Source: Escherichia phage SSBS18_WS_10_728
DNA length: 64,000 nt
Sequence record: MT322327.1
Reading direction: 5' to 3' (one strand)
A program made the position numbers and the translations under genes. Shown piece by piece: positions 14,790 to 24,003 of the stretch (positions are counted from its first letter, which is position 1; each line of letters starts with the position of its first letter). A model generated the notes under the pieces. That model saw nothing but the letters and a program-made list of their open reading frames with translations, ran no database searches and was not told the origin of the DNA.

Positions 14790-16360
14790 AAATTTTATCG
14801 GTTGTCCCAACCTCTGGGTCACCATCATATGTGAATAAAATATCTATCCTTCTTAACAGCCTTCTTAATCTTACTCTCTATATAGTTATATAGTACTATA
14901 TAGTATCTTAGTATCTATCTAGTGGTCTTAATAGCACCTCTGTATAGCCCTTCTAAACACTCTTCTAACAAGCCTTCTTAACAGCCTATACAATCACCTT
15001 AACCATTCCTCTACACCCTCTTAGAAGCTCCTATACACCTCTTAATCTCTAGGTTAGCTATGATACTCTCTATAGGTGTTCACTAGGAAATACTAAGCCT
15101 CTATATAGACTGTTTTAACAAACTTAACAGGAATATCTTTACAGACCTTATCTCACAAGGTCTAACACGGTACTAACAAGGTATCTTATAAGCCTGTTTA
15201 TGCCTGTATTTTTAAAAGACTGTCTAGGTAATTATTCAGAATTTTAAAATTTTTATAAAATAGGACTATCAAGTCATTTTTTAGGGTCTTTGAAGGAACT
15301 GAAAAATATCTGTAGAGTTGATTCGGTAGAGCCTACCTCATGATGTATATCTGCTTGGTAGCCCTTAACATCCTTGTAACATCCCCTTTGCAGAATTTTA
15401 AAATATCATTAACAATCTCTTAACAGTTGCTACATCTTCTTAACATCTCTTCAGAGGTCTTAACAGATTCTTAACAGAACTAACAAGAGCTTAACAGTTT
15501 TTTAACAAGTGCTGAATAGTCTTTACAGAGGTTTAACAGATGACTAACAAGTCCTAAGAAGTTAATTTTAAAGGGTTATTTTGTAAAGATAATTAACAAG
15601 TTCCTAACAAGTGTTTAACCTTTTTAACAAGCTATTAACATGGTCACTATCTCTTGGTCTATAGTTCCCTCTCCCTCTTAGTGACCCTTTAAACATACCT
15701 CTTAAAAGCTCTCCATAGCTCTTTGTAAGCTCTTTTAAGTCTCTTCCTAGTAGTTACACCCCCAACTATACAGAAAGCTATTTATAGGGCTTTACAGGAG
15801 CTTTTAAGGCTATGTCAAAGACTCTTACAAGGCTTTTACGTGGTTTTAACAGAGATTTAACAAGGGGCTAACAAGTTGCTAACAAGTACCTTAAAAGCAT
15901 AACTATGTAGGGTTTGTTAAGAAATTGTTAAGAAAATGTTAAGGGGGCTAGCATTTACGTAACTTTATAGCCTCTTTTACGTAACTTTGAAGTAACTTTA
16001 TAGCCTCTTTTACGTAACTTTATAGCCCCTATAACATACTTTTTAGTGACTATCAAGGGGGTTGTTTAGTTATTCACAAGATACTAACGAGATGATAAAG
16101 CTTACACCCTTATAAGATTCTTTTAAGGCTCTGGTAAGCTTTATAAAGGGATTTTAAGGGTGAAGTAATGCAATCCCTTAAGTTAGGTTAAAAAGGCTGT
16201 TATAGGGCTTTATAGAGCGTTTTAGTGGTTGCCCTTCCCTTTCGGGTTATGGGCTTATATTTAAGTTGATTTGATAAAAGGCTATAGAGTAGACTATAGA
16301 GTTATTGCTTTTAAGGTCTAGTAAGATTCTGGAAAGGAAAGGGAAAGGATTTAATAAGAC
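14790..16360. repeat. 1.6-kb noncoding region dense in short direct repeats
   Basis: No ORF of 60 aa or more on either strand; about 20 copies of TTAACAG/TAACAAG, TATATAG runs, ~23-bp direct repeats TACGTAACTTTATAGCCTCTTT at 15955-16030. Confidence 0.7.
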
Positions 16361-16362
16361 GT

Positions 16363-16387
16363 AAAAAAGCCCCATTTAAGGGGCTGT
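16363..16387 (-). terminator. rho-independent terminator ending the minus-strand small-gene array
   Basis: Minus strand: hairpin AGCCCC-TTAAAT-GGGGCT followed by TTTTTT. Confidence 0.55.
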
Positions 16388-16423
16388 AAAGGTATCTGGG
16401 GCTATTTAGCCCCGTTGCGGCGT

Positions 16424-16672
16424 TTAGTTAGTGCCTTCTTTGTCGTAGTACAGGGAGACTATTTTTTCACCCCAATAGTGAAAAGTGTAACCATCTTTAA
16501 GAACTTCCTGTTTTGTTTCTTTCCAGAACTCATCAGAAGGATTATAGTCTTTGATGGTCTGACTGATAAGACCTTTCACCATTTCAAAGGCGTTATCAGT
16601 GCCAACAAGGTCAAATTTAACATCCAGAGAGTAGAAGCCGAATTCGTTAACAGTTGCGCGAATAGTTGCCAT
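16424..16672 (-). CDS. hypothetical small protein (array gene a)
   Basis: 82-aa ORF preceded by conserved leader cassette. Confidence 0.5.
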   Translation of the reverse strand: MATIRATVNEFGFYSLDVKFDLVGTDNAFEMVKGLISQTIKDYNPSDEFWKETKQEVLKDGYTFHYWGEKIVSLYYDKEGTN

Positions 16673-16745
16673 TTTAGAATCTCCTAGTTTAAGGACTTTG
16701 TTTAGTGGGGAAGGTCATTCCCTCCCGTTGATTAGTAATTTACTG
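16670..16745 (-). promoter_or_regulatory. conserved leader cassette, type A hairpin
   Basis: Minus sense GGGAGGGAATGACCTTCCCC-ACTAAACAAAGTCCTTAAACTAGGAGATTCTAAAATG. Confidence 0.6.
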
Positions 16746-17003
16746 CATGTTGGCGTATGTTGCAAGCCTTTTTTCGTTGTATTTTGTAAGAATCTCACAA
16801 GATAAAACATCATATTTTGTAATAGCGTTGCCTTTGTCGAGGTCAAAGAATCCAAATGTTTTACCATCTTTGAAGCCCACAACCTCGTAAGACTCTTTGA
16901 TGATTTCACCATTGAACAAATCACTTTCGATACGGTGGAATAATGCTACATCCTCTTTATCGGTTGCAATCTGTAACAGTGTGGTCAATTCTACGTGTTC
17001 CAT
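16740..17003 (-). CDS. hypothetical small protein (array gene b)
   Basis: 87-aa ORF with variant leader. Confidence 0.5.
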   Translation of the reverse strand: MEHVELTTLLQIATDKEDVALFHRIESDLFNGEIIKESYEVVGFKDGKTFGFFDLDKGNAITKYDVLSCEILTKYNEKRLATYANMQ

Positions 17004-17060
17004 TTTGAATCTCCAGTTTAGGATTTTATTTAGTGGGGGAGGTTATCCCCCGTTAAAAGA
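17001..17060 (-). promoter_or_regulatory. conserved leader cassette, type A variant
   Basis: Variant leader with GGGGGAGGTTATCCCCC hairpin. Confidence 0.5.
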
Positions 17061-17064
17061 CACT

Positions 17065-17595
17065 TTATAGATTCTTGGTTGTCTCGTCAATATCTTTTTC
17101 AATATCTTTTAAAGTTTTTTCTAAGTTCTTGATATTGAACGTTAAACCTTCACCGAGGGTCTGAGAGTAACCGTTAGGACGATGGTCGTAAAGCTCGATA
17201 TCTTCCACATCGGATAGGCTTACTCTTTCACCATTTGCAGCGTAGGCCATTGAAACAGTATTTACAGGGGCTTTATAGAACTTGTTTAAGGACTTGATAG
17301 AACGTTCGTAAGCCATTTTATAACCGTTTAAAAGGCTTTTAACGTGGTTGTGAACGTTTTTACACTCATCCAAGTAAATCCCTAAGAATAGCGGTAATAA
17401 TTCTGCTACAGCTTGCATAAAGTGAGAGACTACAACTGTTGCAACATTACGACGATGAACGTAATAAGCCCCGTTTTCTGATTTAGTGATGGTTGCAAAG
17501 TGTACCCCATTGCAGCGAAATTCATAGGTATCTTTAACAGGCTTAGACATTACAGCATTTGAGCGAATGTAGTTGATAGCTTGAAATTTGTTCAT
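17065..17595 (-). CDS. hypothetical protein (array gene c)
   Basis: 176-aa ORF with conserved leader. Confidence 0.5.
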   Translation of the reverse strand: MNKFQAINYIRSNAVMSKPVKDTYEFRCNGVHFATITKSENGAYYVHRRNVATVVVSHFMQAVAELLPLFLGIYLDECKNVHNHVKSLLNGYKMAYERSIKSLNKFYKAPVNTVSMAYAANGERVSLSDVEDIELYDHRPNGYSQTLGEGLTFNIKNLEKTLKDIEKDIDETTKNL

Positions 17596-17660
17596 TTTTG
17601 AATCTCCTAGTTTAAGGACTTTATTTAGTGAGGAAGTTCATTCCCTCACCGTTGATTAGT
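17593..17660 (-). promoter_or_regulatory. conserved leader cassette, type A
   Basis: Leader plus hairpin GTGAGGAAGTTCATTCCCTCAC. Confidence 0.6.
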
Positions 17661-17818
17661 AATTTACTTGTTTTGATATCTGATTGCAAGCAATTTTTTA
17701 AGTTTATCTATAAAGAATCTTTTAAGTTAATCCCTTTTAGATAAACCCCCTCGAACAAAGTTACCAATGTCAAGGGGTATTGTCAACACTTTTTTAAAAG
17801 TTTTTTGTAAGTTATTGA

Positions 17819-18160
17819 TTAACTGATGAATATTTTTTCAGGTTTTACATAGCTGATACGCTGACTTTTTAGGAGGTCATCCCAGATTAGCGCGGCAATA
17901 TGAGAATAACCGGATTCACGTAAGAGCTTCATTGCTTTACTTCTCGTTTCGAATCTGGTTGCATAGTACTCACTATTCAAAACAGTTTTATTCCCTTCGT
18001 TATCTGTATGGATAATCTGCATCACTTGAAAGGGGCTGGTATCCTCGCCTTTGTTCCATTGCTCAAAGTATTTTAGGCACTGCATAGGTGACAGCTTATC
18101 GCTTACTTGAGTTGACCAAGATGAATTCTCTTTATCAGTAATTACAGTTACATAAGCCAT
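17819..18160 (-). CDS. hypothetical protein (array gene d)
   Basis: ORF 17819..18205; start set to ATG 18160, which directly follows the conserved leader. Confidence 0.5.
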   Translation of the reverse strand: MAYVTVITDKENSSWSTQVSDKLSPMQCLKYFEQWNKGEDTSPFQVMQIIHTDNEGNKTVLNSEYYATRFETRSKAMKLLRESGYSHIAALIWDDLLKSQRISYVKPEKIFIS

Positions 18161-18235
18161 TTTTGAATCTCCTAGTTTAAGGACTTTATTTAGTAGGGAG
18201 GTCATCCCTCCCGTTGATTGACAATTTACAGACTT
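18160..18235 (-). promoter_or_regulatory. conserved leader cassette, type A
   Basis: Leader plus hairpin GGGAGGTCATCCCTCCC. Confidence 0.6.
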
Positions 18236-18248
18236 TTATCAGGCTTGT

Positions 18249-18482
18249 CTAGTCTTTTTCAATGATAATTTCATATTGACCATCTACGCTGTCAAAATAG
18301 ACACCATCTTCATCTTCTGTCTTAAAGTAACATTGTATATCATCACTGGCGGGGTAGTCTTGTCTTGCTATCTGACAGACCTGAACGGCATTTTCTTTAC
18401 TTCCTGTAAACTCCTCAAGCCCTTTAAAATCACATGAATGACCATTACAAATAGAAAGGATAAGATAAACGGTTGTCAGCAT
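18249..18482 (-). CDS. hypothetical small Cys-containing protein with hydrophobic N-terminus (array gene e)
   Basis: 77-aa ORF; non-conserved upstream region with AGAGGG RBS. Confidence 0.45.
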   Translation of the reverse strand: MLTTVYLILSICNGHSCDFKGLEEFTGSKENAVQVCQIARQDYPASDDIQCYFKTEDEDGVYFDSVDGQYEIIIEKD

Positions 18483-18545
18483 GATTGAAGCCCTCTAAAT
18501 GGCCCTGTGTGGGCCTTAAGTTAAAAGTTGGTGTCTTTGTACTGC

Positions 18546-19109
18546 TTATCCTAAAAAGTCCTTTAAATTGCGTTCTGTGAGGTTTTCCGTGATTTTATCC
18601 AGTAGGTCACAAAACACGGAACTATCACCGCTATTCTGTACAATTTTTGCAATACTCAACAAATCATCATCAATATAGCCCAAATTGCGGTTAGTTGTAT
18701 CAGGTACAAAGAAAGGTGCATACATCGCACTAAATTTTGTTGAGTGTATGCTAACAATCCAATTTTTATCAAAGTATCCGGTAAAGCTGGCAATTTCGCT
18801 CATGTTGTCACAAGAATAATCATCCTCTAGTTCTTCCTCTGGGATATCCATTTCAATAACAATCACGTCCTGCGTTTCCATTTGGAAAGCGGCCGTAATA
18901 AGCCCCGACTCTAAGGCACTTTGAATGCAGCGTTCACGGATGTAAGAGTCTTCCTCATCTTCCATACATTCCATTTTGATAACCTTATCCATTGGGTAAA
19001 CGTAGAAACAATCGTCCATGTAGGAGCAGTTCCAGATACCTTCCGGCTTGTCGCCACCATTCAGCAGGTTTACAAAGTTTTTCAGAGTAGTTCCGTGATA
19101 GCATTTCAT
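18546..19109 (-). CDS. hypothetical acidic protein (array gene f)
   Basis: 187-aa ORF with conserved leader. Confidence 0.5.
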   Translation of the reverse strand: MKCYHGTTLKNFVNLLNGGDKPEGIWNCSYMDDCFYVYPMDKVIKMECMEDEEDSYIRERCIQSALESGLITAAFQMETQDVIVIEMDIPEEELEDDYSCDNMSEIASFTGYFDKNWIVSIHSTKFSAMYAPFFVPDTTNRNLGYIDDDLLSIAKIVQNSGDSSVFCDLLDKITENLTERNLKDFLG

Positions 19110-19200
19110 TTTTGAATCTCCTAGTTTAAGGACTTTGTTTAGTGGTAAAGCTCTTTATCTGGGGCTTACTGTACAGACTTATAAGCCCCTTGTAAAGTAC
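19107..19200 (-). promoter_or_regulatory. conserved leader cassette, type B hairpin
   Basis: Minus sense AAAGTACTTTACAAGGGGCTTA-loop-TAAGCCCCAGATAAAGAGCTTTACCACTAAACAAAGTCCTTAAACTAGGAGATTCAAAAATG. Confidence 0.6.
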
Positions 19201-19201
19201 T

Positions 19202-19405
19202 TTATCGGTTATTTTTGACAACTTTTAAAACTGCAAGATAACCTAAGCAATAAGAGTCGCCGAAGAGAGTCCTACCCATGAAAGAATCCTCTTTAATATC
19301 CTTTGCAGTGACAGTTTTTTCTACGCCGTGGGAAAGGACTACATCGCCAACTTTGATATCTTTGATATGAGTAGTTTCAATGTTTAAACCGTTGATAATA
19401 GCCAT
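19202..19405 (-). CDS. hypothetical small protein (array gene g)
   Basis: 67-aa ORF with conserved leader. Confidence 0.45.
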   Translation of the reverse strand: MAIINGLNIETTHIKDIKVGDVVLSHGVEKTVTAKDIKEDSFMGRTLFGDSYCLGYLAVLKVVKNNR

Positions 19406-19470
19406 TTTTGAATCTCCTAGTTTAAGGACTTTGTTTAGTGGGAAGGTAATTCCCTCCCCGTTGATGTGTA
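19403..19470 (-). promoter_or_regulatory. conserved leader cassette, type A
   Basis: Leader plus hairpin GGGAAGGTAATTCCCTCCCC. Confidence 0.6.
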
Positions 19471-19505
19471 ATTTAATCTATCTGAAAACCAGTGTCAACA
19501 GTTTT

Positions 19506-19910
19506 TTAGAGTTCTGCATAAATTGCGTCGCAGATATTACGAAAATCGTGATTTGTTAAGTTACGTTGCAACCATGTTGCGAAAAAGTCAGCGATTGCAA
19601 AATTAGCGTCATACTCAACAGATAGCCACACTTTAACAGCAAATCGAAACATTTTCAAGTCTAATTCTTTATTCATAACCTTTGATTTGCCTAACATGTC
19701 AGCCATCTCATATTGTGCACCGTCTAGCGTGATACCTGCTGCAACGTCAGCCAATGAGTTTTTTACGCTTTCAACGTCTAAGATAACACTTTGAATCTTA
19801 CCAATAATGTTGTGTAATGTTTCGTCCGGTGCTGATGACGTGATAACATTAATCCGGTTGACGGTCAAACGCGCTTTTAAGATTGATAACTCACGATTAT
19901 TAATAGCCAT
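19506..19910 (-). CDS. hypothetical protein (array gene h)
   Basis: 134-aa ORF with variant leader. Confidence 0.5.
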   Translation of the reverse strand: MAINNRELSILKARLTVNRINVITSSAPDETLHNIIGKIQSVILDVESVKNSLADVAAGITLDGAQYEMADMLGKSKVMNKELDLKMFRFAVKVWLSVEYDANFAIADFFATWLQRNLTNHDFRNICDAIYAEL

Positions 19911-19995
19911 TTTAGAATCTCCAATTTAGGATTTAGTTAGTAAAGCTCTTTATCTGGGGCTTACTTTATCGAACTATAAGCCCCTTGTAAAGTAC
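19908..19995 (-). promoter_or_regulatory. conserved leader cassette, type B variant
   Basis: Type B hairpin GGGGCTTA...TAAGCCCC with variant RBS region GGAGATTCTAAAATG. Confidence 0.55.
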
Positions 19996-19996
19996 T

Positions 19997-20269
19997 TTAT
20001 GCTAAATGCAGCTTTTTACCTTTTACCATGATGTAAGTTGATGCGCTATTACTATAAACATCCTGATAAATTCTGCGCAAACGGCCTTCGTAGTATACTT
20101 TCCAACTGGTTGGAATCTTTTTCCCGTATCCTGTAGCAGTTTTTTGGAGTCCTGCAACTTGCCAATCTAAGATATGTTGTTCGGCTTGTAAATCCTCGAA
20201 GTGCATTACACCGTTCACATAGTGACGAAGGGTTACATTTAAAGTGCGACCGTTGTTAGTAGTATACAT
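19997..20269 (-). CDS. hypothetical protein (array gene i)
   Basis: 90-aa ORF with conserved leader. Confidence 0.5.
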   Translation of the reverse strand: MYTTNNGRTLNVTLRHYVNGVMHFEDLQAEQHILDWQVAGLQKTATGYGKKIPTSWKVYYEGRLRRIYQDVYSNSASTYIMVKGKKLHLA

Positions 20270-20340
20270 TTTTGAATCTCCTAGTTTAAGGACTTTACTT
20301 AGTGGGGAGGTTATTACCTCCCGTTGATTAGTAATTTACT
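20267..20340 (-). promoter_or_regulatory. conserved leader cassette, type A
   Basis: Leader plus hairpin GGGGAGGTTATTACCTCCC. Confidence 0.6.
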
Positions 20341-20357
20341 TGTTTTAAAAACCAAAA

Positions 20358-20690
20358 TCAAGAGGAATTTTTTCGTTTGTTCAATTCTTGGACAATTACA
20401 GCGTAATAGTCTTTTAAGTCACTAATATTTAAAGCATTTATCAGAGAGTTATAATCATCCACTAACTGAAAATCATCTTTGAAAATGTCACTTATCTGAT
20501 AGGTTTTCGCTTTATATCTGAAGCTCATCTCTAGCCGCTTTATTTGCTCATCACTGAGGCGCCCTAGAAAGCTTTCTACAAGGTTATTGCTAACCTGCTG
20601 TGTGATTGCCTTATTTGCTAGATTATAGGCTTTATATGCCTTATATAGCGCGAAAATGGCAATGATTGCAGTGATACCAGTCATTAACAT
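20358..20690 (-). CDS. hypothetical membrane-anchored protein (array gene j)
   Basis: 110-aa ORF with N-terminal TM helix; start overlaps stop of upstream gene (translational coupling). Confidence 0.45.
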   Translation of the reverse strand: MLMTGITAIIAIFALYKAYKAYNLANKAITQQVSNNLVESFLGRLSDEQIKRLEMSFRYKAKTYQISDIFKDDFQLVDDYNSLINALNISDLKDYYAVIVQELNKRKNSS

Positions 20691-20980
20691 GGTGTTTCCT
20701 CTTTACGTGATACTTTGCCATTTACAGTTATCTCATAAGAATCTAGTAAGTCACTTTTAGATTTTACTGGACTTTTAAAAGTATCATCATAGACATTTAC
20801 TTGCAATACAGGTTTTTTATATTCCCTGCAACTATTCCATAAGCAAATCACTACACGACGGCCTTTTATTTTGCCGTGTAACCATTCCATAACATCATGA
20901 CTATTCCTTGATGTCTCTATAAAATCAATTTTGTTGAGTAATTTGCTGAGGTTTTCCCTAACTTTATTTGATAATTTCAT
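20684..20980 (-). CDS. hypothetical protein (array gene k)
   Basis: 98-aa ORF with variant leader. Confidence 0.5.
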   Translation of the reverse strand: MKLSNKVRENLSKLLNKIDFIETSRNSHDVMEWLHGKIKGRRVVICLWNSCREYKKPVLQVNVYDDTFKSPVKSKSDLLDSYEITVNGKVSRKEETPC

Positions 20981-21070
20981 CTTTGAATCTCCTAGTTTAA
21001 GGGTTAATTTGATAAATCTCTTTATCTGGGGCTATCATATCCGCTTGTTAGCCCCGTGTAAAGAAATCTA
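20978..21070 (-). promoter_or_regulatory. conserved leader cassette, type B variant
   Basis: CTTTATCTGGGGCTA...TAGCCCCGTG hairpin with leader. Confidence 0.5.
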
Positions 21071-21071
21071 T

Positions 21072-21584
21072 TTAGTTCTTAAAGATATTCATCACTGAAT
21101 CTTTTAATGCTTCCAAGCGTTCTAATACTTCAGATTCTGCGTCTGCGTTGTTCACTTCCTCTTTTAGTCTGTCATCTAAATCATCGCCGTCACTGTAGCA
21201 CCAATCGAAAGCATAACCAATATAAAAACTCTCTAAAACCGTGCTACCGTTTGCATCTACAACTTTCGCGGCAATGTTATACTCTGAAGCCTCTAAATCC
21301 CTTTCTAGTTCTTTCTGTAAGCTCGTGTAAGCCTCTTTCGATGGATTCTCACGGCCTTGTTTTGCATAGTCACTTGAAAGCTGCTTAAGGCTGTAATGTA
21401 AAGGGATTGCATATTTAAATTCATTACGCTGACAGTTAAGATTTTTAATAGTTACACCGCCTTGATGGTCATCTGTAAATTTCCAATTATCAAGGTTATG
21501 ACTTGCTTCGTAGCAATTAACAGCCTCATAAATGATGGAAAATTTTTCTTTTACAACTTCAAAGGTAGCGTCTACAGTTTTCAT
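21072..21584 (-). CDS. hypothetical acidic protein (array gene l)
   Basis: 170-aa ORF with conserved leader. Confidence 0.5.
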   Translation of the reverse strand: MKTVDATFEVVKEKFSIIYEAVNCYEASHNLDNWKFTDDHQGGVTIKNLNCQRNEFKYAIPLHYSLKQLSSDYAKQGRENPSKEAYTSLQKELERDLEASEYNIAAKVVDANGSTVLESFYIGYAFDWCYSDGDDLDDRLKEEVNNADAESEVLERLEALKDSVMNIFKN

Positions 21585-21678
21585 TTTTGAATCTCCTAGT
21601 TTAAGGACTTGATTTAGTGGTAAAGCTCTTTATCTGGGGCTTAAGATATCAACTTTTAAGCCCCTTGTAAAGTACTTT
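21582..21678 (-). promoter_or_regulatory. conserved leader cassette, type B
   Basis: Same architecture as 19107..19200. Confidence 0.6.
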
Positions 21679-21679
21679 A

Positions 21680-21937
21680 TCAGATTAAATTGCCAGTTAA
21701 TGATAAGTGCATTTTGTAACCTTGTTTAGTAAACACGTTCACTTTACCGATGGATTTTACACCTTTAAAGAGGTTATTTGAACTGCGTTTTAAGGTTAAC
21801 TTTTTATCAGCCTTCACGCCCCATCTTACAGCAGTTTGTTTTCCGTTGTCAACCACTTTCCCGCCTAACTTTTTCGCCATGATGCGAGCGTCATCACGAG
21901 TTTTTGCAGGAACTACAACGTTTTTGATAATAGCCAT
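21680..21937 (-). CDS. hypothetical basic protein (array gene m)
   Basis: 85-aa ORF with leader. Confidence 0.5.
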   Translation of the reverse strand: MAIIKNVVVPAKTRDDARIMAKKLGGKVVDNGKQTAVRWGVKADKKLTLKRSSNNLFKGVKSIGKVNVFTKQGYKMHLSLTGNLI

Positions 21938-22024
21938 TTTAGAATCTCCAATTTAGGATTTAGTGGTAAAGCTCTTTATCTGGGGCTTACTTTATCTAAC
22001 TATAAGCCCCTTGTAAAGTACTTT
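21935..22024 (-). promoter_or_regulatory. conserved leader cassette, type B variant
   Basis: Near-identical to the copy at 19908..19995. Confidence 0.55.
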
Positions 22025-22025
22025 A

Positions 22026-22406
22026 TCAGTTAATTTTGAAAATTGTCACATAGCCGTCACTGCCGATTATTTGAGACACTCCAGCTTTTTCCACTGAATA
22101 GCCCATATTTTCAAGATGATAAACAGCATCATCATAACCATATGCGCCACCCTGATAACGTCTCTTATCGCATCTTATCAGGTTTTTACCACGTCCTGCA
22201 AGTGCATTCAGTACGGCTTTTTCACTTGATAGCGTACCATCTAACATGGTTGCCGTGTAATGGTTGATTTTATTCCCGTTAATATCATACTTAAAATTGA
22301 ATGCGTGAACAACAATCAATTTGCCGTTAAATTTTTCATCAAGTGACTTCTCCAGTGCGTTGCGGAAGTTGTCTTTGTTGATGAATTTCGGTGCACGATA
22401 AGCCAT
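22026..22406 (-). CDS. hypothetical protein (array gene n)
   Basis: 126-aa ORF with leader. Confidence 0.5.
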   Translation of the reverse strand: MAYRAPKFINKDNFRNALEKSLDEKFNGKLIVVHAFNFKYDINGNKINHYTATMLDGTLSSEKAVLNALAGRGKNLIRCDKRRYQGGAYGYDDAVYHLENMGYSVEKAGVSQIIGSDGYVTIFKIN

Positions 22407-22493
22407 TTTTGAATCTCCTAGTTTAAGGTTAATGTAGTAAAGCTCTTTATCTGGGGCTTAAGATATCAGCTTTTAAGCCCCCTGTAAAGTACT
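22404..22493 (-). promoter_or_regulatory. conserved leader cassette, type B
   Basis: Type B hairpin plus CTAGGAGATTCAAAAATG. Confidence 0.55.
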
Positions 22494-22494
22494 T

Positions 22495-22701
22495 TTATTT
22501 ATCGTAGTAGTAAATTGCTGTCTGTCTTGTAAACTTCTTAGTGTTTCTTGTAAGGTAGCAATTAGAATTAATAGCCGTTTCTACATAGTTGCAATAGTCG
22601 GCTTCTGATATTCTGGACCATACGCCACAGATTTTCATGTAAAAACGTTTTGCCTTTGTGTTAACGTTAGTTGTAACCATTAATTCACGATAGTAAGTCA
22701 T
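22495..22701 (-). CDS. hypothetical small Cys-containing protein (array gene o)
   Basis: 68-aa ORF with partial leader. Confidence 0.45.
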   Translation of the reverse strand: MTYYRELMVTTNVNTKAKRFYMKICGVWSRISEADYCNYVETAINSNCYLTRNTKKFTRQTAIYYYDK

Positions 22702-22740
22702 TTTTGGATTCTCCAGTTTAGGAAGTGGGCTGGCTTGCCC
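22699..22740 (-). promoter_or_regulatory. conserved leader cassette, divergent copy
   Basis: CATTTTTGGATTCTCCAGTTTAGGAAG then hairpin GGGCTGGCTTGCCC. Confidence 0.4.
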
Positions 22741-22799
22741 GTCTGATGCAAATATTAAATAACCATAGTCAAAGAGTCAATAGGAATTTTAAAAATATT

Positions 22800-23150
22800 T
22801 TTGCAAAAAAAAAAAAAACTGTAATGAAACGGGCGCACGCGACTACCACAAAACAGAACTACAATCAAGAATTATTTTTCAATCCGCTACAAATTTTTCT
22901 GTTGACTTTTATTTTCAGATGTGGTAGCCTTGTGAGAAATGGCGACATCCCCACCTGCACCCACCTACCTGCACAATTCTAAAATGATTTTTCTTGCCCG
23001 ACCTGAGCGGGGTCTGCACGTTTTGAAAATAAAAAAGCTCTTTGGAGATTATCTGCACAGTTTGAAAATGAATTTTCTCTTTGGAGTTCAAAATTTTCTC
23101 TACAGATTTCTCTACAGAACTCTACCTGCACAATTCTAAAATGAAAAAGC
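22800..23150. repeat. intergenic region with 14-nt poly(A) tract and four CTGCAC-N-TTTGAAAATG-like repeats
   Basis: A14 at 22805-22818; repeats at ~22966, ~23016, ~23058, ~23126. Confidence 0.6.
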
Positions 23151-23217
23151 CCTCCTTACCTGAAAAATTTACCAGATAAGAAAGGCTTAGTCTATTGTGA
23201 ATATTATACAGATTTTC

Positions 23218-24003
23218 TTAGTTCTTTGCGCCTAAAAAGGTAACTTCTGGTGAAGAGAAAATTTCCTCAACATTCTCATCAGTTCTTGCATAGATATATG
23301 TGTCTGCATCACTGCCAAATGTTACTGCAATTCTGTGATTGCTCTTCGACAGGTGGGTAACTAGAGCGTTACTTAGAGACATCTTTTCAACCGGAGGGTT
23401 ACTTTGATGTATCTCGCCTTTTCTTCGTCTGAAGAGGGTAACTGCATCATCAGTGAACGTTACTACACCTGCAAAGTATTCTGGTTCACAGTAGTTCTTC
23501 CAACCTGAGCGTAACTTGTGGTACATCTCCCCTTCGTAGACATACAGATACACATCTACACTCTTCATCACCTGATTAATGATAACGGTAACGGCTTGAG
23601 GGTCCAGTCCACCGATACCTGCACCAATCATAGGTAACCCAACTTTCTTCAACTGATTCACTTCACAGTATCTGTTAAACTGTTTCAAAGATGACTCTAA
23701 AGCACTGTATCGAGCATCTTTACCAGTCTTAAGCTGAGTGTAAAGGTTAGCTATACGGCCTTGTTTTAAACGTGCTACAGAGAAATTGCCTAGTAAATTC
23801 TCACAGGGCTTGTGGCCTATTCCACCTGCATACAGATAAACTTCTGTATCAGTCTCATATGCTTTTGGGTAAAGTTTAGAAATCTTGTCAGCGATACCTG
23901 CACCCATTAAGTTCATACAGTTGCAACCGTGACCGATGACGTCAAACTTACCTTTATCAAATGCTGCAAAGATATCACCATTGATAATTTTTACAATACC
24001 CAT
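23218..24003 (-). CDS. macro-domain protein (ADP-ribose binding/hydrolase-like) with C-terminal extension
   Basis: N-terminal motifs NGDIF, VIGHGCNCMNLMGAGIA, IGAGIGGL typical of Macro/Appr-1-p processing domains. Confidence 0.6.
   Translation of the reverse strand: MGIVKIINGDIFAAFDKGKFDVIGHGCNCMNLMGAGIADKISKLYPKAYETDTEVYLYAGGIGHKPCENLLGNFSVARLKQGRIANLYTQLKTGKDARYSALESSLKQFNRYCEVNQLKKVGLPMIGAGIGGLDPQAVTVIINQVMKSVDVYLYVYEGEMYHKLRSGWKNYCEPEYFAGVVTFTDDAVTLFRRRKGEIHQSNPPVEKMSLSNALVTHLSKSNHRIAVTFGSDADTYIYARTDENVEEIFSSPEVTFLGAKN

What the first reader, a model, noticed from the sequence alone, without database searches (positions are those of the whole stretch)
16424..22740. Array of 15 small genes, 13 with a near-identical leader cassette
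Thirteen of the fifteen small minus-strand genes are preceded by CACTAAA(C/T)AAAGTCCTTAAACTAGGAGATTC(A/T)AAAATG (RBS AGGAGA fixed 8 nt from ATG). Upstream sits one of two hairpin modules: type A GGGAGGGAATGACCTTCCCC, or type B AAGGGGCTTA-loop-TAAGCCCC preceded by TTTACA and the palindrome AAAGTACTTT. Gene contents are unrelated to one another while the regulatory cassette is conserved, suggesting a modular accessory-gene array with cassette-by-cassette exchange, a phage-specific promoter/operator, or a conserved RNA processing/translation element.
Basis: seen in the sequence. Interest (0 to 1): 0.7.

Follow-up and report, generated by a model that had tools for sequence, protein, structure and literature searches.

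The report
Repeated promoter–hairpin–leader cassettes in phage
In this Felix O1-like phage, a block of 15 small early genes of unknown function has nearly every gene preceded by a copy of one regulatory cassette (a host-type promoter, a G/C hairpin and a standard ribosome-binding leader), and related phages gain, lose and swap single genes at these copies, much as described for "PeSL" cassettes in T4-like phages.

Summary
The window is a Felixounavirus (93.5% identical to coliphages C600M2 and CL1). On the minus strand, 16424-22701 holds 15 small ORFs from 15 different PHROG families, all of unknown function. Thirteen carry the leader ...CCT(T)AAAyT(A)GGAGAwTCnAAAATG. The leader occurs nowhere else in the 64-kb window, nor in the complete genome of C600M2.

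The interpretation needs correcting. The modules look like host sigma-70 promoters, not phage-specific ones.
- Type A (7 copies): a -35 box, 17 bp, TAAATT, 10 nt, a G/C hairpin predicted to sit at the 5' end of the mRNA, then the leader.
- Type B (6 copies): TTTACA, 17 bp, TAnnnT. The -10 box lies in the loop of a hairpin that extends to about 18-20 bp.

Across about 240 unique cassettes, the -35 box, the spacing and the T-A...T of the -10 box stay fixed while the other positions vary. Citrobacter and Erwinia relatives keep the same design with different stem sequences.

Relatives keep the gene order but differ by presence or absence of single cassettes. Deletion junctions and chimeric promoters lie inside the modules. 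Per-gene identity jumps at the module borders.

The closest known system is the PeSL (promoter-early stem-loop) cassette of T4-like phages. I class this as a new member of that kind. The promoter, RNA and recombination functions are inferred from sequence, not measured.

The parts
23147..23188 (-). Intrinsic terminator closing the preceding operon (macro-domain gene 23218-24003). Upstream boundary of the array.
   Evidence: 17-pair stem followed by a T run. Identical to terminator t13 listed for Felix O1 in PMC3185647 Table 2.
22702..22780 (-). First module of the array (type A variant). -35 TTGACT 22775-22780, -10 TAATAT 22752-22757, hairpin GGGCaagccaGCCC 22727-22740, leader ACTTCCTAAACTGGAGAATCCAAAA. 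An A/T-rich tract lies upstream.
   Evidence: (hairpin -7.6 kcal/mol)
22495..22701 (-). Gene 1, 68 aa, phrog_5293, unknown function.
22407..22495 (-). Type B module before gene 2. -35 TTTACA 22483-22488, -10 TATCTT 22460-22465, extended hairpin about 22439-22495, then the leader.
   Evidence: (-21.0 kcal/mol, z -3.9)
22026..22406 (-). Gene 2, 126 aa, phrog_4495, unknown function.
21938..22025 (-). Type B module before gene 3. -35 TTTACA 22012-22017, -10 TAAAGT 21989-21994, extended hairpin about 21968-22024.
   Evidence: (-22.6 kcal/mol, z -4.4)
21680..21937 (-). Gene 3, 85 aa, phrog_5089, unknown function.
21585..21679 (-). Type B module before gene 4. -35 TTTACA 21666-21671, -10 TATCTT 21643-21648, extended hairpin about 21622-21678.
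21072..21584 (-). Gene 4, 170 aa, phrog_4190, unknown function. Its Felix O1 homologue ORF16 was maximally expressed at 5 min.
   Evidence: PMC3185647 Table 3
20981..21071 (-). Type B module before gene 5 (stem variant GGGGCTA..TAGCCCC). -35 TTTACA 21057-21062, -10 TATGAT 21034-21039, uninterrupted 13-bp lower stem, hairpin about 21012-21071.
   Evidence: (-24.8 kcal/mol, z -6.3)
20684..20980 (-). Gene 5, 98 aa, phrog_4401.
20358..20690 (-). Gene 6, 110 aa, phrog_4375. It has no cassette. Its start overlaps the end of gene 5 (ATGTTAATG), which indicates translational coupling.
20270..20361 (-). Type A module before gene 7. -35 TTGATT 20356-20361 (overlaps the stop codon of gene 6), -10 TAAATT 20333-20338, hairpin GGGAGGtaataaCCTCCC 20304-20322, then the leader.
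   Evidence: (-12.6 kcal/mol)
19997..20269 (-). Gene 7, 90 aa, phrog_3436.
19911..19998 (-). Type B module before gene 8. -35 TTTACA 19986-19991, -10 TAAAGT 19963-19968, extended hairpin about 19942-19998.
19506..19910 (-). Gene 8, 134 aa, phrog_4327. Its Felix O1 homologue ORF20 was maximally expressed at 5 min.
   Evidence: PMC3185647 Table 3
19406..19505 (-). Type A module before gene 9. -35 TTGACA 19493-19498, -10 TAAATT 19470-19475, hairpin 19440-19458, then the leader.
   Evidence: (-13.4 kcal/mol)
19202..19405 (-). Gene 9, 67 aa, phrog_3623.
19110..19203 (-). Type B module before gene 10. -35 TTTACA 19191-19196, -10 TACAGT 19168-19173, extended hairpin about 19147-19203.
   Evidence: (-21.8 kcal/mol, z -4.3)
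18546..19109 (-). Gene 10, 187 aa, phrog_3303. Occurs as two alleles about 66% identical among relatives.
18483..18545 (-). Spacer before gene 11 that is not a cassette. Contains hairpin GGCCCacacaGGGCC and SD GAGGG.
   Evidence: -10.6 kcal/mol
18249..18482 (-). Gene 11, 77 aa, phrog_4640.
18161..18251 (-). Type A module before gene 12. -35 TAGACA 18246-18251 (overlaps the stop codon of gene 11), -10 TAAATT 18223-18228, hairpin 18196-18212, then the leader.
17819..18160 (-). Gene 12, 113 aa counted from the ATG behind the leader, phrog_4318. Its Felix O1 homologue ORF21 was maximally expressed at 5 min.
17596..17818 (-). Long spacer plus the type A module before gene 13. -35 TTGCAA 17684-17689, -10 TAAATT 17661-17666, hairpin GGTGAGG..CCTCAC 17628-17650, then the leader. 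The distal part holds a further TTGACA-17-TAACTT and a CCCCT..AGGGGG hairpin.
   Evidence: -11.9 kcal/mol
17065..17595 (-). Gene 13, 176 aa, phrog_4725. Its Felix O1 homologue ORF22 was maximally expressed at 5 min.
17004..17090 (-). Type A module before gene 14. -35 TTGACG 17085-17090 (inside the 3' end of gene 13), -10 TAAAGT 17062-17067 (contains the stop codon), hairpin 17035-17050, then the leader.
16740..17003 (-). Gene 14, 87 aa, phrog_7022. Absent from Felix O1, allfine, tootiki and SUT_S720.
16673..16765 (-). Type A module before gene 15. -35 TTGCAA 16760-16765 (inside gene 14), -10 TAAATT 16737-16742 (contains the stop codon of gene 14), hairpin 16707-16726, then the leader.
16424..16672 (-). 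Gene 15, 82 aa, phrog_4559. Occurs as two alleles (about 70% and about 90% identical to the window) among relatives.
16368..16385 (-). Intrinsic terminator closing the array (AGCCCCttaaatGGGGCT followed by TTTTTT).
   Evidence: Corresponds to Felix O1 terminator t23 (PMC3185647 Table 2).

Best explanation
The region is an early, hyperplastic block of ORFan genes in a Felix O1-like myovirus. Almost every gene has its own copy of a composite regulatory cassette, and each cassette has three parts.

1. A promoter for host RNA polymerase with sigma-70.
- Type A: a -35 box (TTGACA, TTGCAA, TTGATT, TAGACA or TTGACG), 17 bp, then TAAATT.
- Type B: TTTACA, 17 bp, then TAnnnT.

2. A G-tract/C-tract stem-loop.
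- In type A it starts 10 nt after the -10 box. That places it 2-3 nt after the predicted start site, so it would form a 5'-terminal hairpin on the mRNA. The likely role is protection from 5'-end-dependent decay.
- In type B it spans the promoter spacer and the -10 box and extends to an interrupted helix of about 18-20 bp. It would be present only in RNA read through from the upstream gene. There it would act as a 3' stabiliser, attenuator or processing site.

3. A standard A/U-rich leader with AGGAGA placed 7 nt before ATG, which gives unrelated genes the same translation start context.

Because the cassettes are 60-100-bp direct repeats, homologous recombination and gene conversion between them keeps them alike. 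It also deletes, inserts or replaces single genes among co-infecting relatives.

Shown here: the anatomy, its conservation pattern, its confinement to this array, and the cassette-level mosaicism with junctions inside modules.
Inferred, not measured: promoter activity, transcription start sites, the RNA roles of the hairpins, and the recombination mechanism.
For: Identity of the window: Felixounavirus, 93.5% identical to C600M2 and CL1 over 7.2 kb.

Promoter signature:
- A consensus scan flags TTTACA-17-TAnnnT at all six type B modules and finds TTGACA/TAGACA/TTGACG/TTGACT-17-TAnnnT at type A modules.
- Among unique cassettes from about 30 genomes, 118 of 119 scored type A modules have a -35 box (TTG or at least 4/6 matches), 17 bp (116 cases) or 18 bp (2 cases), then TAnnnT. 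For type B, 108 of 109 have TTTACA, 17 or 18 bp, then TAnnnT.
- Type A spacers are unrelated in sequence between variants, yet the boxes and their spacing are kept.
- In the type B loop only T-12, A-11 and T-7 of the -10 box are invariant or nearly so. The unpaired C and A of TTTACA are also invariant.
- Felix O1 homologues ORF16, 20, 21 and 22 were maximally expressed 5 min after infection (PMC3185647 Table 3).

Hairpins:
- Type A hairpins fold at -11.5 to -13.4 kcal/mol.
- Extended type B structures fold at -21 to -25 kcal/mol, z-scores -3.9 to -6.3.
- 93-94% of cells are paired, compared with 28-55% when the partner is slid by 1-3 columns. The upper helix is 100% paired across three genera. 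Compensatory pairs are G-C to U-A at columns 8-58 and 21-46.
- One-sided changes are nearly all G-U on the sense strand. This points to a structure acting in RNA.
- Citrobacter phage Michonne and Erwinia phage vEam_PM_6 keep the layout 'promoter, 9-10 nt, hairpin' with quite different stems (GGGGC/GCCCC, GGGA/TCCC, GGTTGA/TCAACC).

Recombination:
- Arrays are collinear but differ by single cassettes.
- The Felix O1 8->12 junction joins the promoter of the 8->9 module to a hairpin and leader.
- Two independent 13->15 junctions exist, one within the -10 box and one within the leader.
- The same gene border carries different or chimeric promoter variants in different phages.
- The 126-aa family sits behind type A in 12 copies and type B in 12 copies.
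- Per-gene identity jumps at borders, for example 96.6 / 71.1 / 93.2% and 93.6 / 66.5 / 90.1%.

Confinement: all motifs lie only in the array, both in the window and in a complete relative genome.
Against: - There are no transcription-start, RNA-end or reporter data for any Felix O1-like phage in the searchable literature. Promoter and hairpin functions therefore rest on sequence pattern alone.
- In type B, TTTACA and the final T of the -10 box are also part of the stem. Their conservation is thus confounded with conservation of the structure.
- Covariation is thin. There are 2-3 compensatory pairs, and each probably reflects a single event spread by gene conversion. Most pairs never vary.
- Neither hairpin is followed by a U tract, so a classical terminator role, as claimed for PeSL stem-loops, is not evident.
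- Gene order is conserved, and only 18 protein families were seen behind the leader in about 270 cassettes. 'Shuffling' here means indels and allele swaps, not free reassortment.
- Some identity breakpoints lie inside genes, for example within gene 3 against SeKF_63.
- Felix O1 RT-PCR placed ORFs 14, 17, 19 and 23 of the same array at 25 min rather than 5 min.
Confidence: 0.7

Rival explanations
1. Only the type A modules (and the first promoter) are promoters. The type B elements would instead be intercistronic RNA elements inside polycistronic transcripts. On this view they resemble the RNase III processing sites of the T7 early region. The interrupted helix of about 18-20 bp would be cut in its internal loop. 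The upstream mRNA would keep a protective 3' hairpin, and the downstream mRNA would carry the standard leader. The apparent TTTACA-17-TAnnnT would be a by-product of the structure.
For: - The extended three-tier hairpin is strongly predicted (-21 to -25 kcal/mol, z -3.9 to -6.3) and is conserved across three genera, with G-U wobbles on the sense strand only and two compensatory pairs.
- Its size and internal loop resemble T7 RNase III sites. This comparison is from my own knowledge and was not tested.
- In the window every type B module lies downstream of a type A promoter with no intervening terminator.
- TTTACA and the last T of the -10 box are themselves stem positions.
Against: - T-12 and A-11 of the putative -10 box lie in the loop and are invariant, while neighbouring loop positions vary among at least 8 loop variants and three genera. 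RNA structure gives no reason for that.
- The unpaired C and A of TTTACA are invariant.
- The spacing is 17 bp in 105 of 109 modules and 18 bp in 3.
- The two roles are not exclusive. PeSL elements of T4-like phages were shown experimentally to be both promoters and stem-loop attenuators (PMC2839356).
Confidence: 0.2
2. The cassettes are recognised by a phage-encoded factor. This could be a phage-specific promoter, or an operator (the palindrome AAAGTACTTT) bound by a phage repressor that shuts off early genes together.
For: - The conserved sequence extends well beyond what sigma-70 needs: AAAGTACTTT, AGATAAAGAGCTTTAC, ATCAAC and ACTAAAyAAAG.
- A coordinated shut-off of an early gene block would be biologically sensible.
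- How Felix O1 regulates transcription over time is stated to be unknown (PMC3185647).
Against: - Canonical -35 and -10 boxes at 17 bp already account for the promoter positions.
- Felix O1 encodes no recognisable RNA polymerase or sigma-like factor (PMC3185647).
- The palindrome is explained as the 5' arm of the extended hairpin, pairing with TAAAGAGCTTT. It is replaced by ATAGATTT paired with AGATTTAT in the 4->5 module.
- Type A modules lack the palindrome.
- Extra conservation is what gene conversion among repeats would produce.
Confidence: 0.06
3. The repeats are selfish or neutral repeated DNA, comparable to bacterial REP or MITE elements, that spread between genes and have no regulatory role.
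For: - The repeats are short, hairpin-forming and intergenic.
- They occur in many near-identical copies.
- They show chimeras and copy-number variation between genomes.
Against: - Every copy has one orientation and ends in an SD sequence and ATG at a fixed distance.
- Promoter boxes are kept at exact spacing while other positions drift.
- The architecture is retained, with diverged sequence, in three genera.
- No copies lie outside the array.
Confidence: 0.03

Closest known systems
PeSL (promoter-early stem-loop) cassettes of T4-like myoviruses (Arbiol et al. 2010, PMC2839356; Comeau et al. 2014, PMC4122927)
   Same: - Short composite intergenic motifs made of a sigma-70-type early promoter, a G-tract/C-tract stem-loop, and an SD sequence with ATG at the 3' end.
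- The stem-loop lies either between or over the -35 and -10 boxes (as in type B here) or just downstream of the -10 box (as in type A here).
- They are clustered upstream of small ORFans in a plastic region.
- Indels and replacements between close relatives have their junctions in the motifs.
- The -35 consensus TTTACW reported for the T4/PST pair is the same as in type B.
   Different: - The host phage belongs to a different subfamily (Ounavirinae, not T4-like).
- The cassettes here are far more uniform, with a 35-50-nt leader conserved in addition to the SD sequence.
- The type B stem extends to a three-tier helix of about 18-20 bp.
- All copies lie in one 6.4-kb array rather than in several regions.
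- Promoter activity, terminator activity and mini-circle formation were shown experimentally for PeSLs and have not been tested here.
RNase III processing sites between genes of the phage T7 early region (from my own knowledge)
   Same: - Intercistronic stem-loops of about two helical turns with an internal loop.
- Repeated between small early genes transcribed by host polymerase.
- Cutting would leave a 3' hairpin on the upstream mRNA.
   Different: - No cleavage data exist here.
- T7 sites do not contain promoters.
- The stems here are interrupted and A/U-rich at the base.
- Type A hairpins (6-8 bp) are too short for RNase III.
5'-terminal stabilising stem-loops of E. coli mRNAs such as ompA (from my own knowledge)
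   Same: Type A places a stable hairpin 2-3 nt from the predicted 5' end. That is the geometry known to protect an mRNA from 5'-end-dependent RNase E attack.
   Different: The start site is only predicted, and no half-life data exist.
The direct repeats listed in the Felix O1 genome paper (Whichard et al. 2010, PMC3185647)
   Same: The 57-bp repeat CTTTACATGGGGCTTAAAAGTCTGTAAAGTAAGCCCCAGATAAAGAGCTTTACCACT is a type B module. The 39-bp repeat TTGACACTGGTTTTTAGATAGATTAAATTACACATCAAC is a type A promoter.
   Different: The paper listed them only as repeats. It assigned no function and stated that promoters downstream of terminators and temporal control were unknown.

Membership tests
PeSL (promoter-early stem-loop) cassette | Contains a sigma-70-like promoter (-35 box, about 17 bp, -10 box) | tested here: met
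   By sequence only. All 13 window modules meet it, as do 118/119 type A and 108/109 type B unique cassettes.
PeSL (promoter-early stem-loop) cassette | Contains a stable stem-loop, often a G tract followed by a C tract. It lies between or over the -35 and -10 boxes, or just after the -10 box. | tested here: met
   Type B stem GGGGCTTA/TAAGCCCC spans the spacer and the -10 box. Type A stem GGGAGGG/CCTCCC starts 10 nt after the -10 box. Folds are; pairing is 93-100%.
PeSL (promoter-early stem-loop) cassette | Intergenic, beginning at the upstream stop codon and ending in the SD sequence and start codon of a small ORF(an) | tested here: met
   (spacers of 61-100 nt running from stop codon to ATG). 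All 15 products are of unknown function.
PeSL (promoter-early stem-loop) cassette | Concentrated in a hyperplastic region and associated with indels or replacements between close relatives, with exchange points in the motif | tested here: met
   Confined to the array. Cassette presence or absence differs among relatives. Junctions and chimeras lie inside modules. Identity jumps at borders. A few breakpoints are intragenic.
PeSL (promoter-early stem-loop) cassette | Demonstrated strong promoter activity and terminator or attenuator activity of the stem-loop | not testable with these tools
   This needs reporter fusions or in vitro transcription. No U tract follows either hairpin.
PeSL (promoter-early stem-loop) cassette | Formation of mini-circles by recombination between neighbouring cassettes | not testable with these tools
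   This needs outward-facing PCR or read-level data from infected cells or virions.
PeSL (promoter-early stem-loop) cassette | Occurs in T4-like phages (the group in which it was defined) | tested here: not met
   The window is a Felixounavirus of the subfamily Ounavirinae. I therefore treat it as a PeSL-like cassette in another lineage, not as the T4 family of sequences.
Rho-independent terminator | G+C-rich hairpin immediately followed by a U-rich tract | tested here: not met
   The scan finds such sites only at the two ends of the array (23147-23188 and 16368-16385), not at the cassettes.
Single-subunit (T7-like) phage RNA polymerase promoter | Conserved motif of about 20 bp up to +1 that lacks -35/-10 logic, together with a phage-encoded RNA polymerase | tested here: not met
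   Spacer sequences between the boxes are unrelated among type A variants. No phage RNA polymerase is reported for Felix O1 (PMC3185647). I did not scan the window for one myself.
RNase III processing site (T7 early type) | About 20 bp of mostly double-stranded RNA with an internal loop, and cleavage by RNase III | tested here: inconclusive
   The dimensions fit type B: 5+5+8-9 bp with a 3x3 internal loop. Cleavage cannot be tested. There is no Rfam match.
Described RNA family (Rfam 15) | Match reaching a family's gathering score | tested here: not met
   The only hit was a sub-threshold chance match to mir-245 (26.6 bits; gathering score 70).

The most novel reading that the evidence does not exclude
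The type B element may be a dual-coded unit in which a sigma-70 promoter is embedded in an RNase III-type hairpin. The predicted start site is the A of AGAUAAAG, 7 nt after the -10 box. It coincides with the 3' side of the hairpin's internal loop, where T7-type sites are cut. If so, initiation at the cassette and processing of read-through RNA would give the same 5' end and the same leader. Each gene's mRNA would then be identical whichever route produced it. Together with the 5'-hairpin type A form, this would make a portable, context-independent expression cassette that lets these phages plug new genes into the early programme.
Probability: 0.2. Interest if true: 0.6.

Novelty: new member of a known kind. 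Interest (0 to 1): 0.4.

Why it matters
- It would extend PeSL-type 'mobile regulatory cassettes' beyond T4-like phages. They would then be a more general way for virulent phages to express and exchange small early accessory genes. Such genes are the likely host-takeover and anti-defence repertoire.
- It proposes answers to questions the Felix O1 genome paper left open: where the promoters downstream of terminators lie, and how this block is expressed early.
- It provides a defined set of strong, compact promoter and 5'-UTR parts, and clear recombination landmarks, for engineering Felix O1-like phages used in Salmonella and E. coli typing and biocontrol.

Tried and rejected
- Rfam scan of 15000-23500 found no known RNA family.
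- Pfam, PHROG and PDB-sequence searches of the array proteins gave only unknown-function families or nothing. I therefore did not use the large protein-homology, structure-prediction or fold-search tools, because the finding concerns the cassettes.
- My first fuzzy-regex search for leaders missed 5 of the 13. I replaced it with an explicit pattern.
- The IMG/VR scan returned fragmented loci. These were usable for cassette statistics but not for synteny, so I fetched full arrays from GenBank records instead.
- Literature searches for Felix O1 or Felixounavirus transcriptomes, promoter motifs or PeSL-like elements found nothing specific. One search was badly framed and wasted. The wV8 genome paper does not mention promoters.
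- I considered and rejected four readings: T7-like promoters starting at GGGAGG (the boxes fit sigma-70 and the spacers vary); the cassette hairpins as intrinsic terminators (no U tract); integron-like attC cassettes (no integrase, every cassette has a promoter, all in one orientation); and AAAGTACTTT as a stand-alone operator (it is an arm of the hairpin).

Full report
**What the window is.** The 7.2 kb around the finding is 93.5% identical over its full length to Escherichia phages C600M2 and CL1. It matches 258 phage records, essentially all of them Felix O1-like myoviruses (Ounavirinae, Felixounavirus). In annotated relatives, every gene in the region is 'hypothetical protein'. In phage AYO145A only two 'promoter' features and the flanking terminators are annotated.

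**Checking the observation.**
- The minus strand between 16424 and 22701 carries 15 consecutive small ORFs of 67-187 aa.
- A pattern for the leader finds exactly 13 copies. All are on the minus strand, all abut an ORF start, and none lies elsewhere in the 64 kb.
- The 18-nt core occurs 9 times exactly against 0.05 expected. The shorter variant occurs 4 times against 0.03 expected.
The other five score 27-34/38.
- Gene 6 has no cassette because its start overlaps the end of gene 5 (ATGTTAATG). Gene 11 has a different spacer with its own hairpin.
- The 15 proteins fall in 15 different PHROG families, all of unknown function. None has a Pfam hit above threshold, and the three largest have no PDB sequence relative.
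- The array is bounded by intrinsic terminators at 23147-23188 and 16368-16385. These correspond to terminators t13 and t23 of Felix O1 (PMC3185647).
- In the complete genome of the closest relative (88,159 bp), the leader and the type B motif occur only in this array.

**Anatomy of type A (genes 7, 9, 12, 13, 14, 15, and a variant before gene 1).**
- The layout is: an A-rich tract; a -35 box (TTGACA, TTGCAA, TTGATT, TAGACA, TTGACG or TTGACT); 17 bp; a -10 box (TAAATT, or TAAAGT/TAATAT); 10 nt (ACTAATCAAC or similar); a G/C hairpin of 6-8 bp (-11.5 to -13.4 kcal/mol, and -7.6 before gene 1); then ACTAAAyAAAGTCCTTAAACTAGGAGATTCAAAAATG.
- For genes 12, 14 and 15, the -35 box and sometimes the -10 box lie inside the 3' end of the upstream gene.
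- With the usual 7-nt distance from the -10 box, transcription would start at an A in ATCAAC, 2-3 nt before the hairpin. The hairpin would therefore be 5'-terminal on the mRNA. This start site is an inference.

**Anatomy of type B (genes 2, 3, 4, 5, 8, 10).**
- The layout is: the upstream stop codon; AAAGTA-CTTTACA; then GGGGCTTA, a loop of 11-13 nt and TAAGCCCC; then AGATAAAGAGCTTTAC and the leader.
- TTTACA is followed after exactly 17 bp by TATCTT, TAAAGT, TATGAT or TACAGT. The -10 box therefore sits in the loop and 3' arm of the hairpin.
From the base upward it has a lower stem AAAGU/GCUUU, a middle stem CUUUA/UAAAG, a 3x3 internal loop, and an upper stem of 8-9 bp. The free energy is -21 to -25 kcal/mol, with z-scores of -3.9 to -6.3 against shuffles.
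- The predicted start site (the A of AGATAAAG) lies after the upper stem. RNA initiated at the cassette would lack the hairpin; only read-through RNA would contain it.

**Comparative test of the promoter reading.**
- I collected cassettes from nine further GenBank arrays and 45 IMG/VR loci, giving 287 cassettes of which 239 have unique upstream sequences.
- Type A exists as about seven discrete promoter variants. Their spacers are unrelated in sequence, yet the boxes and the 17-bp spacing are kept. Of 119 scored, 118 have a -35 box (TTG or at least 4/6 matches), 17 or 18 bp, then TAnnnT.
- Type B exists with at least eight loop variants. Of 109, 108 have TAnnnT at 17 bp (105 cases) or 18 bp (3 cases) after TTTACA.
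- In alignments of diverse type B modules, the only invariant loop positions are the T and A that correspond to -12 and -11. The T at -7 is nearly invariant. The unpaired C and A of TTTACA are invariant. These are the positions that matter most to sigma-70 (general knowledge).
- In Felix O1, RT-PCR placed ORFs 16, 20, 21 and 22 of this array among the genes maximally expressed at 5 min. ORFs 14, 17, 19 and 23 peaked at 25 min (PMC3185647 Table 3).

**Comparative test of the hairpins.**
- For type B, 93% of cells pair, against 32-55% when the partner is slid by 1-3 columns.
- Most pairs never vary. Pair 8-58 shows G-C (21) and U-A (6), with 5 broken cells that are recombinant chimeras.
- After adding Citrobacter phage Michonne (Mooglevirus) and Erwinia phage vEam_PM_6 (Kolesnikvirus), the upper helix is 100% paired. 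Pair 21-46 is G-C in 21 sequences and U-A in the four Erwinia modules.
- One-sided changes are almost all G-U on the sense strand. This favours a structure acting in RNA over a DNA cruciform.
- The covariation is real but thin, and it probably reflects few events.
- For type A, the distant phages keep a hairpin 9-10 nt after the -10 box but with unrelated stems: GGGGC/GCCCC, GGGA/TCCC, GGTTGA/TCAACC and GGGGG/CCCCC. This argues that position and structure are selected, not sequence.
- No Rfam family matches.

**Evidence for exchange one cassette at a time.**
- Ten full arrays are collinear but differ by whole cassettes:
  - Felix O1 lacks window genes 2, 3, 9, 10, 11 and 14.
  - AYO145A and SUT_S720 lack gene 1.
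  - tootiki lacks gene 2.
  - Several phages lack gene 14.
  - SeKF_63 and allfine have an extra 62-aa gene.
  - SUT_S720 has a different last gene.
- Junctions lie inside modules. The Felix O1 8->12 junction keeps the promoter variant of the 8->9 module and continues into a hairpin and leader. Gene 14 is missing through two different junctions, one within the -10 box (Felix O1) and one within the leader (allfine, tootiki).
- The same gene border carries different promoter variants, or chimeras of two variants, in different phages.
- The 126-aa family is found behind type A in 12 copies and behind type B in 12 copies.
- Nucleotide identity to the window changes abruptly from gene to gene. Examples are SeKF_63 at 96.6 / 71.1 / 93.2% for genes 2-4 and 93.6 / 66.5 / 90.1% for genes 9-11, and allfine at 76.6 / 99.5 / 91.5% for genes 1-3. 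The transitions are mostly at the cassettes, but at least one is inside gene 3.
- The pool is limited: 18 protein families behind the leader in about 270 cassettes. The pattern is indels and allele replacement within a conserved order, not free shuffling.

**Comparison with what is known.**
- The Felix O1 genome paper listed a 57-bp and a 39-bp direct repeat. These are a type B module and a type A promoter. It gave no interpretation and stated that promoters downstream of terminators and temporal regulation were unknown. The wV8 paper is silent on the matter.
- The closest described system is the PeSL of T4-like phages. A PeSL combines a strong sigma-70-like early promoter with a G/C-tract stem-loop and ends in an SD sequence and ATG. 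The stem-loop lies between or over the boxes or just after the -10 box. PeSLs cluster before ORFans in hyperplastic regions and mediate indels, replacements and mini-circles.
- All the PeSL features that can be tested from sequence are met here. The experimental features are untested, and the host phage belongs to a different subfamily.
- I found no paper applying the PeSL concept to Felix O1-like phages.
- Differences worth noting are the uniform 35-50-nt leader, the extended type B helix, and the confinement to one array.

**Mechanism and alternatives.**
- I consider it most likely (about 0.7) that both module types are host-polymerase early promoters with attached RNA hairpins and a standard translation leader, and that their repetition drives concerted evolution and cassette-level exchange.
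- The main alternative (about 0.2) is that type B is only an RNA processing or stabilising site, like the T7 RNase III sites, within operons driven by type A promoters. The invariant loop T-A argues against 'only', but an RNA role in addition is plausible.
- A phage-specific factor or operator (about 0.06) and a functionless selfish repeat (about 0.03) fit the data poorly.

**Verdict.** This is a PeSL-like system in a new phage lineage, a new member of a known kind, and of moderate interest.

Noticed in passing
window 22950-23160: Four to five copies of a ~20-nt motif (minus strand ATTTTnnAAnnGTGCAGRT; plus strand TACCTGCACAATTCTAAAATGA). A tandem TTTCTCTACAGA x2 is also present. They lie in the ~450-nt non-coding gap between the terminator of the macro-domain gene and the first promoter of the array. 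Their role is unknown; they could be binding sites for a regulator.
   Followed up: partly
window ~14800-16350: About 1.5 kb of non-coding DNA just downstream of the array, between convergent transcription units. It is packed with TAACAAG / CTTAACAG repeats, often 11 nt apart, and with 22-nt TTTACGTAACTTTATAGCCTC repeats. Phages mio and allfine annotate it only as 'repeat_region'. It looks iteron-like and may be a replication origin or packaging-related site.
   Followed up: partly
window 17690-17818: The unusually long spacer before gene 13 holds an extra TTGACA-17-TAACTT and a CCCCT...AGGGGG hairpin followed by TTTATCT. The region is conserved in relatives including Citrobacter phage Michonne, where a 46-aa ORF is annotated in it. 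It could be a decayed cassette or a small RNA.
   Followed up: no
window 18483-18545: Gene 11 has its own spacer with hairpin GGCCCacacaGGGCC. In relatives the stem is GCCCC/GGGGC or CCCC/GGGG followed by TTTT, which looks like a terminator, directly before the SD sequence. This suggests attenuation between genes 10 and 11.
   Followed up: no
window, all 13 leaders (e.g. 16680-16694): The conserved UCCU(U)AAACU-AGGA of the leader can form a weak 3-4-bp hairpin that sequesters the SD sequence. CCT is invariant in all leader variants, and Erwinia phage leaders keep CCTTAAACAGGAAT.
   Followed up: partly
window 23218-24003 (-): The gene just upstream of the array is a 261-aa macro-domain protein (Pfam Macro, E 1.3e-7; phrog_335 'phosphatase'). 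It is related at ~34% identity to T4 Tk.4-type macro-domain proteins.
   Followed up: partly
L055 (Citrobacter phage Michonne) 6200-13870; L056 (Erwinia phage vEam_PM_6) 10100-16700: Distant Ounavirinae carry homologous arrays with the same two cassette designs. Michonne has 19 small genes, including a duplicated cassette and gene (85 aa x2). The Erwinia phage has a diverged leader and GGTG..CACC stems.
   Followed up: partly
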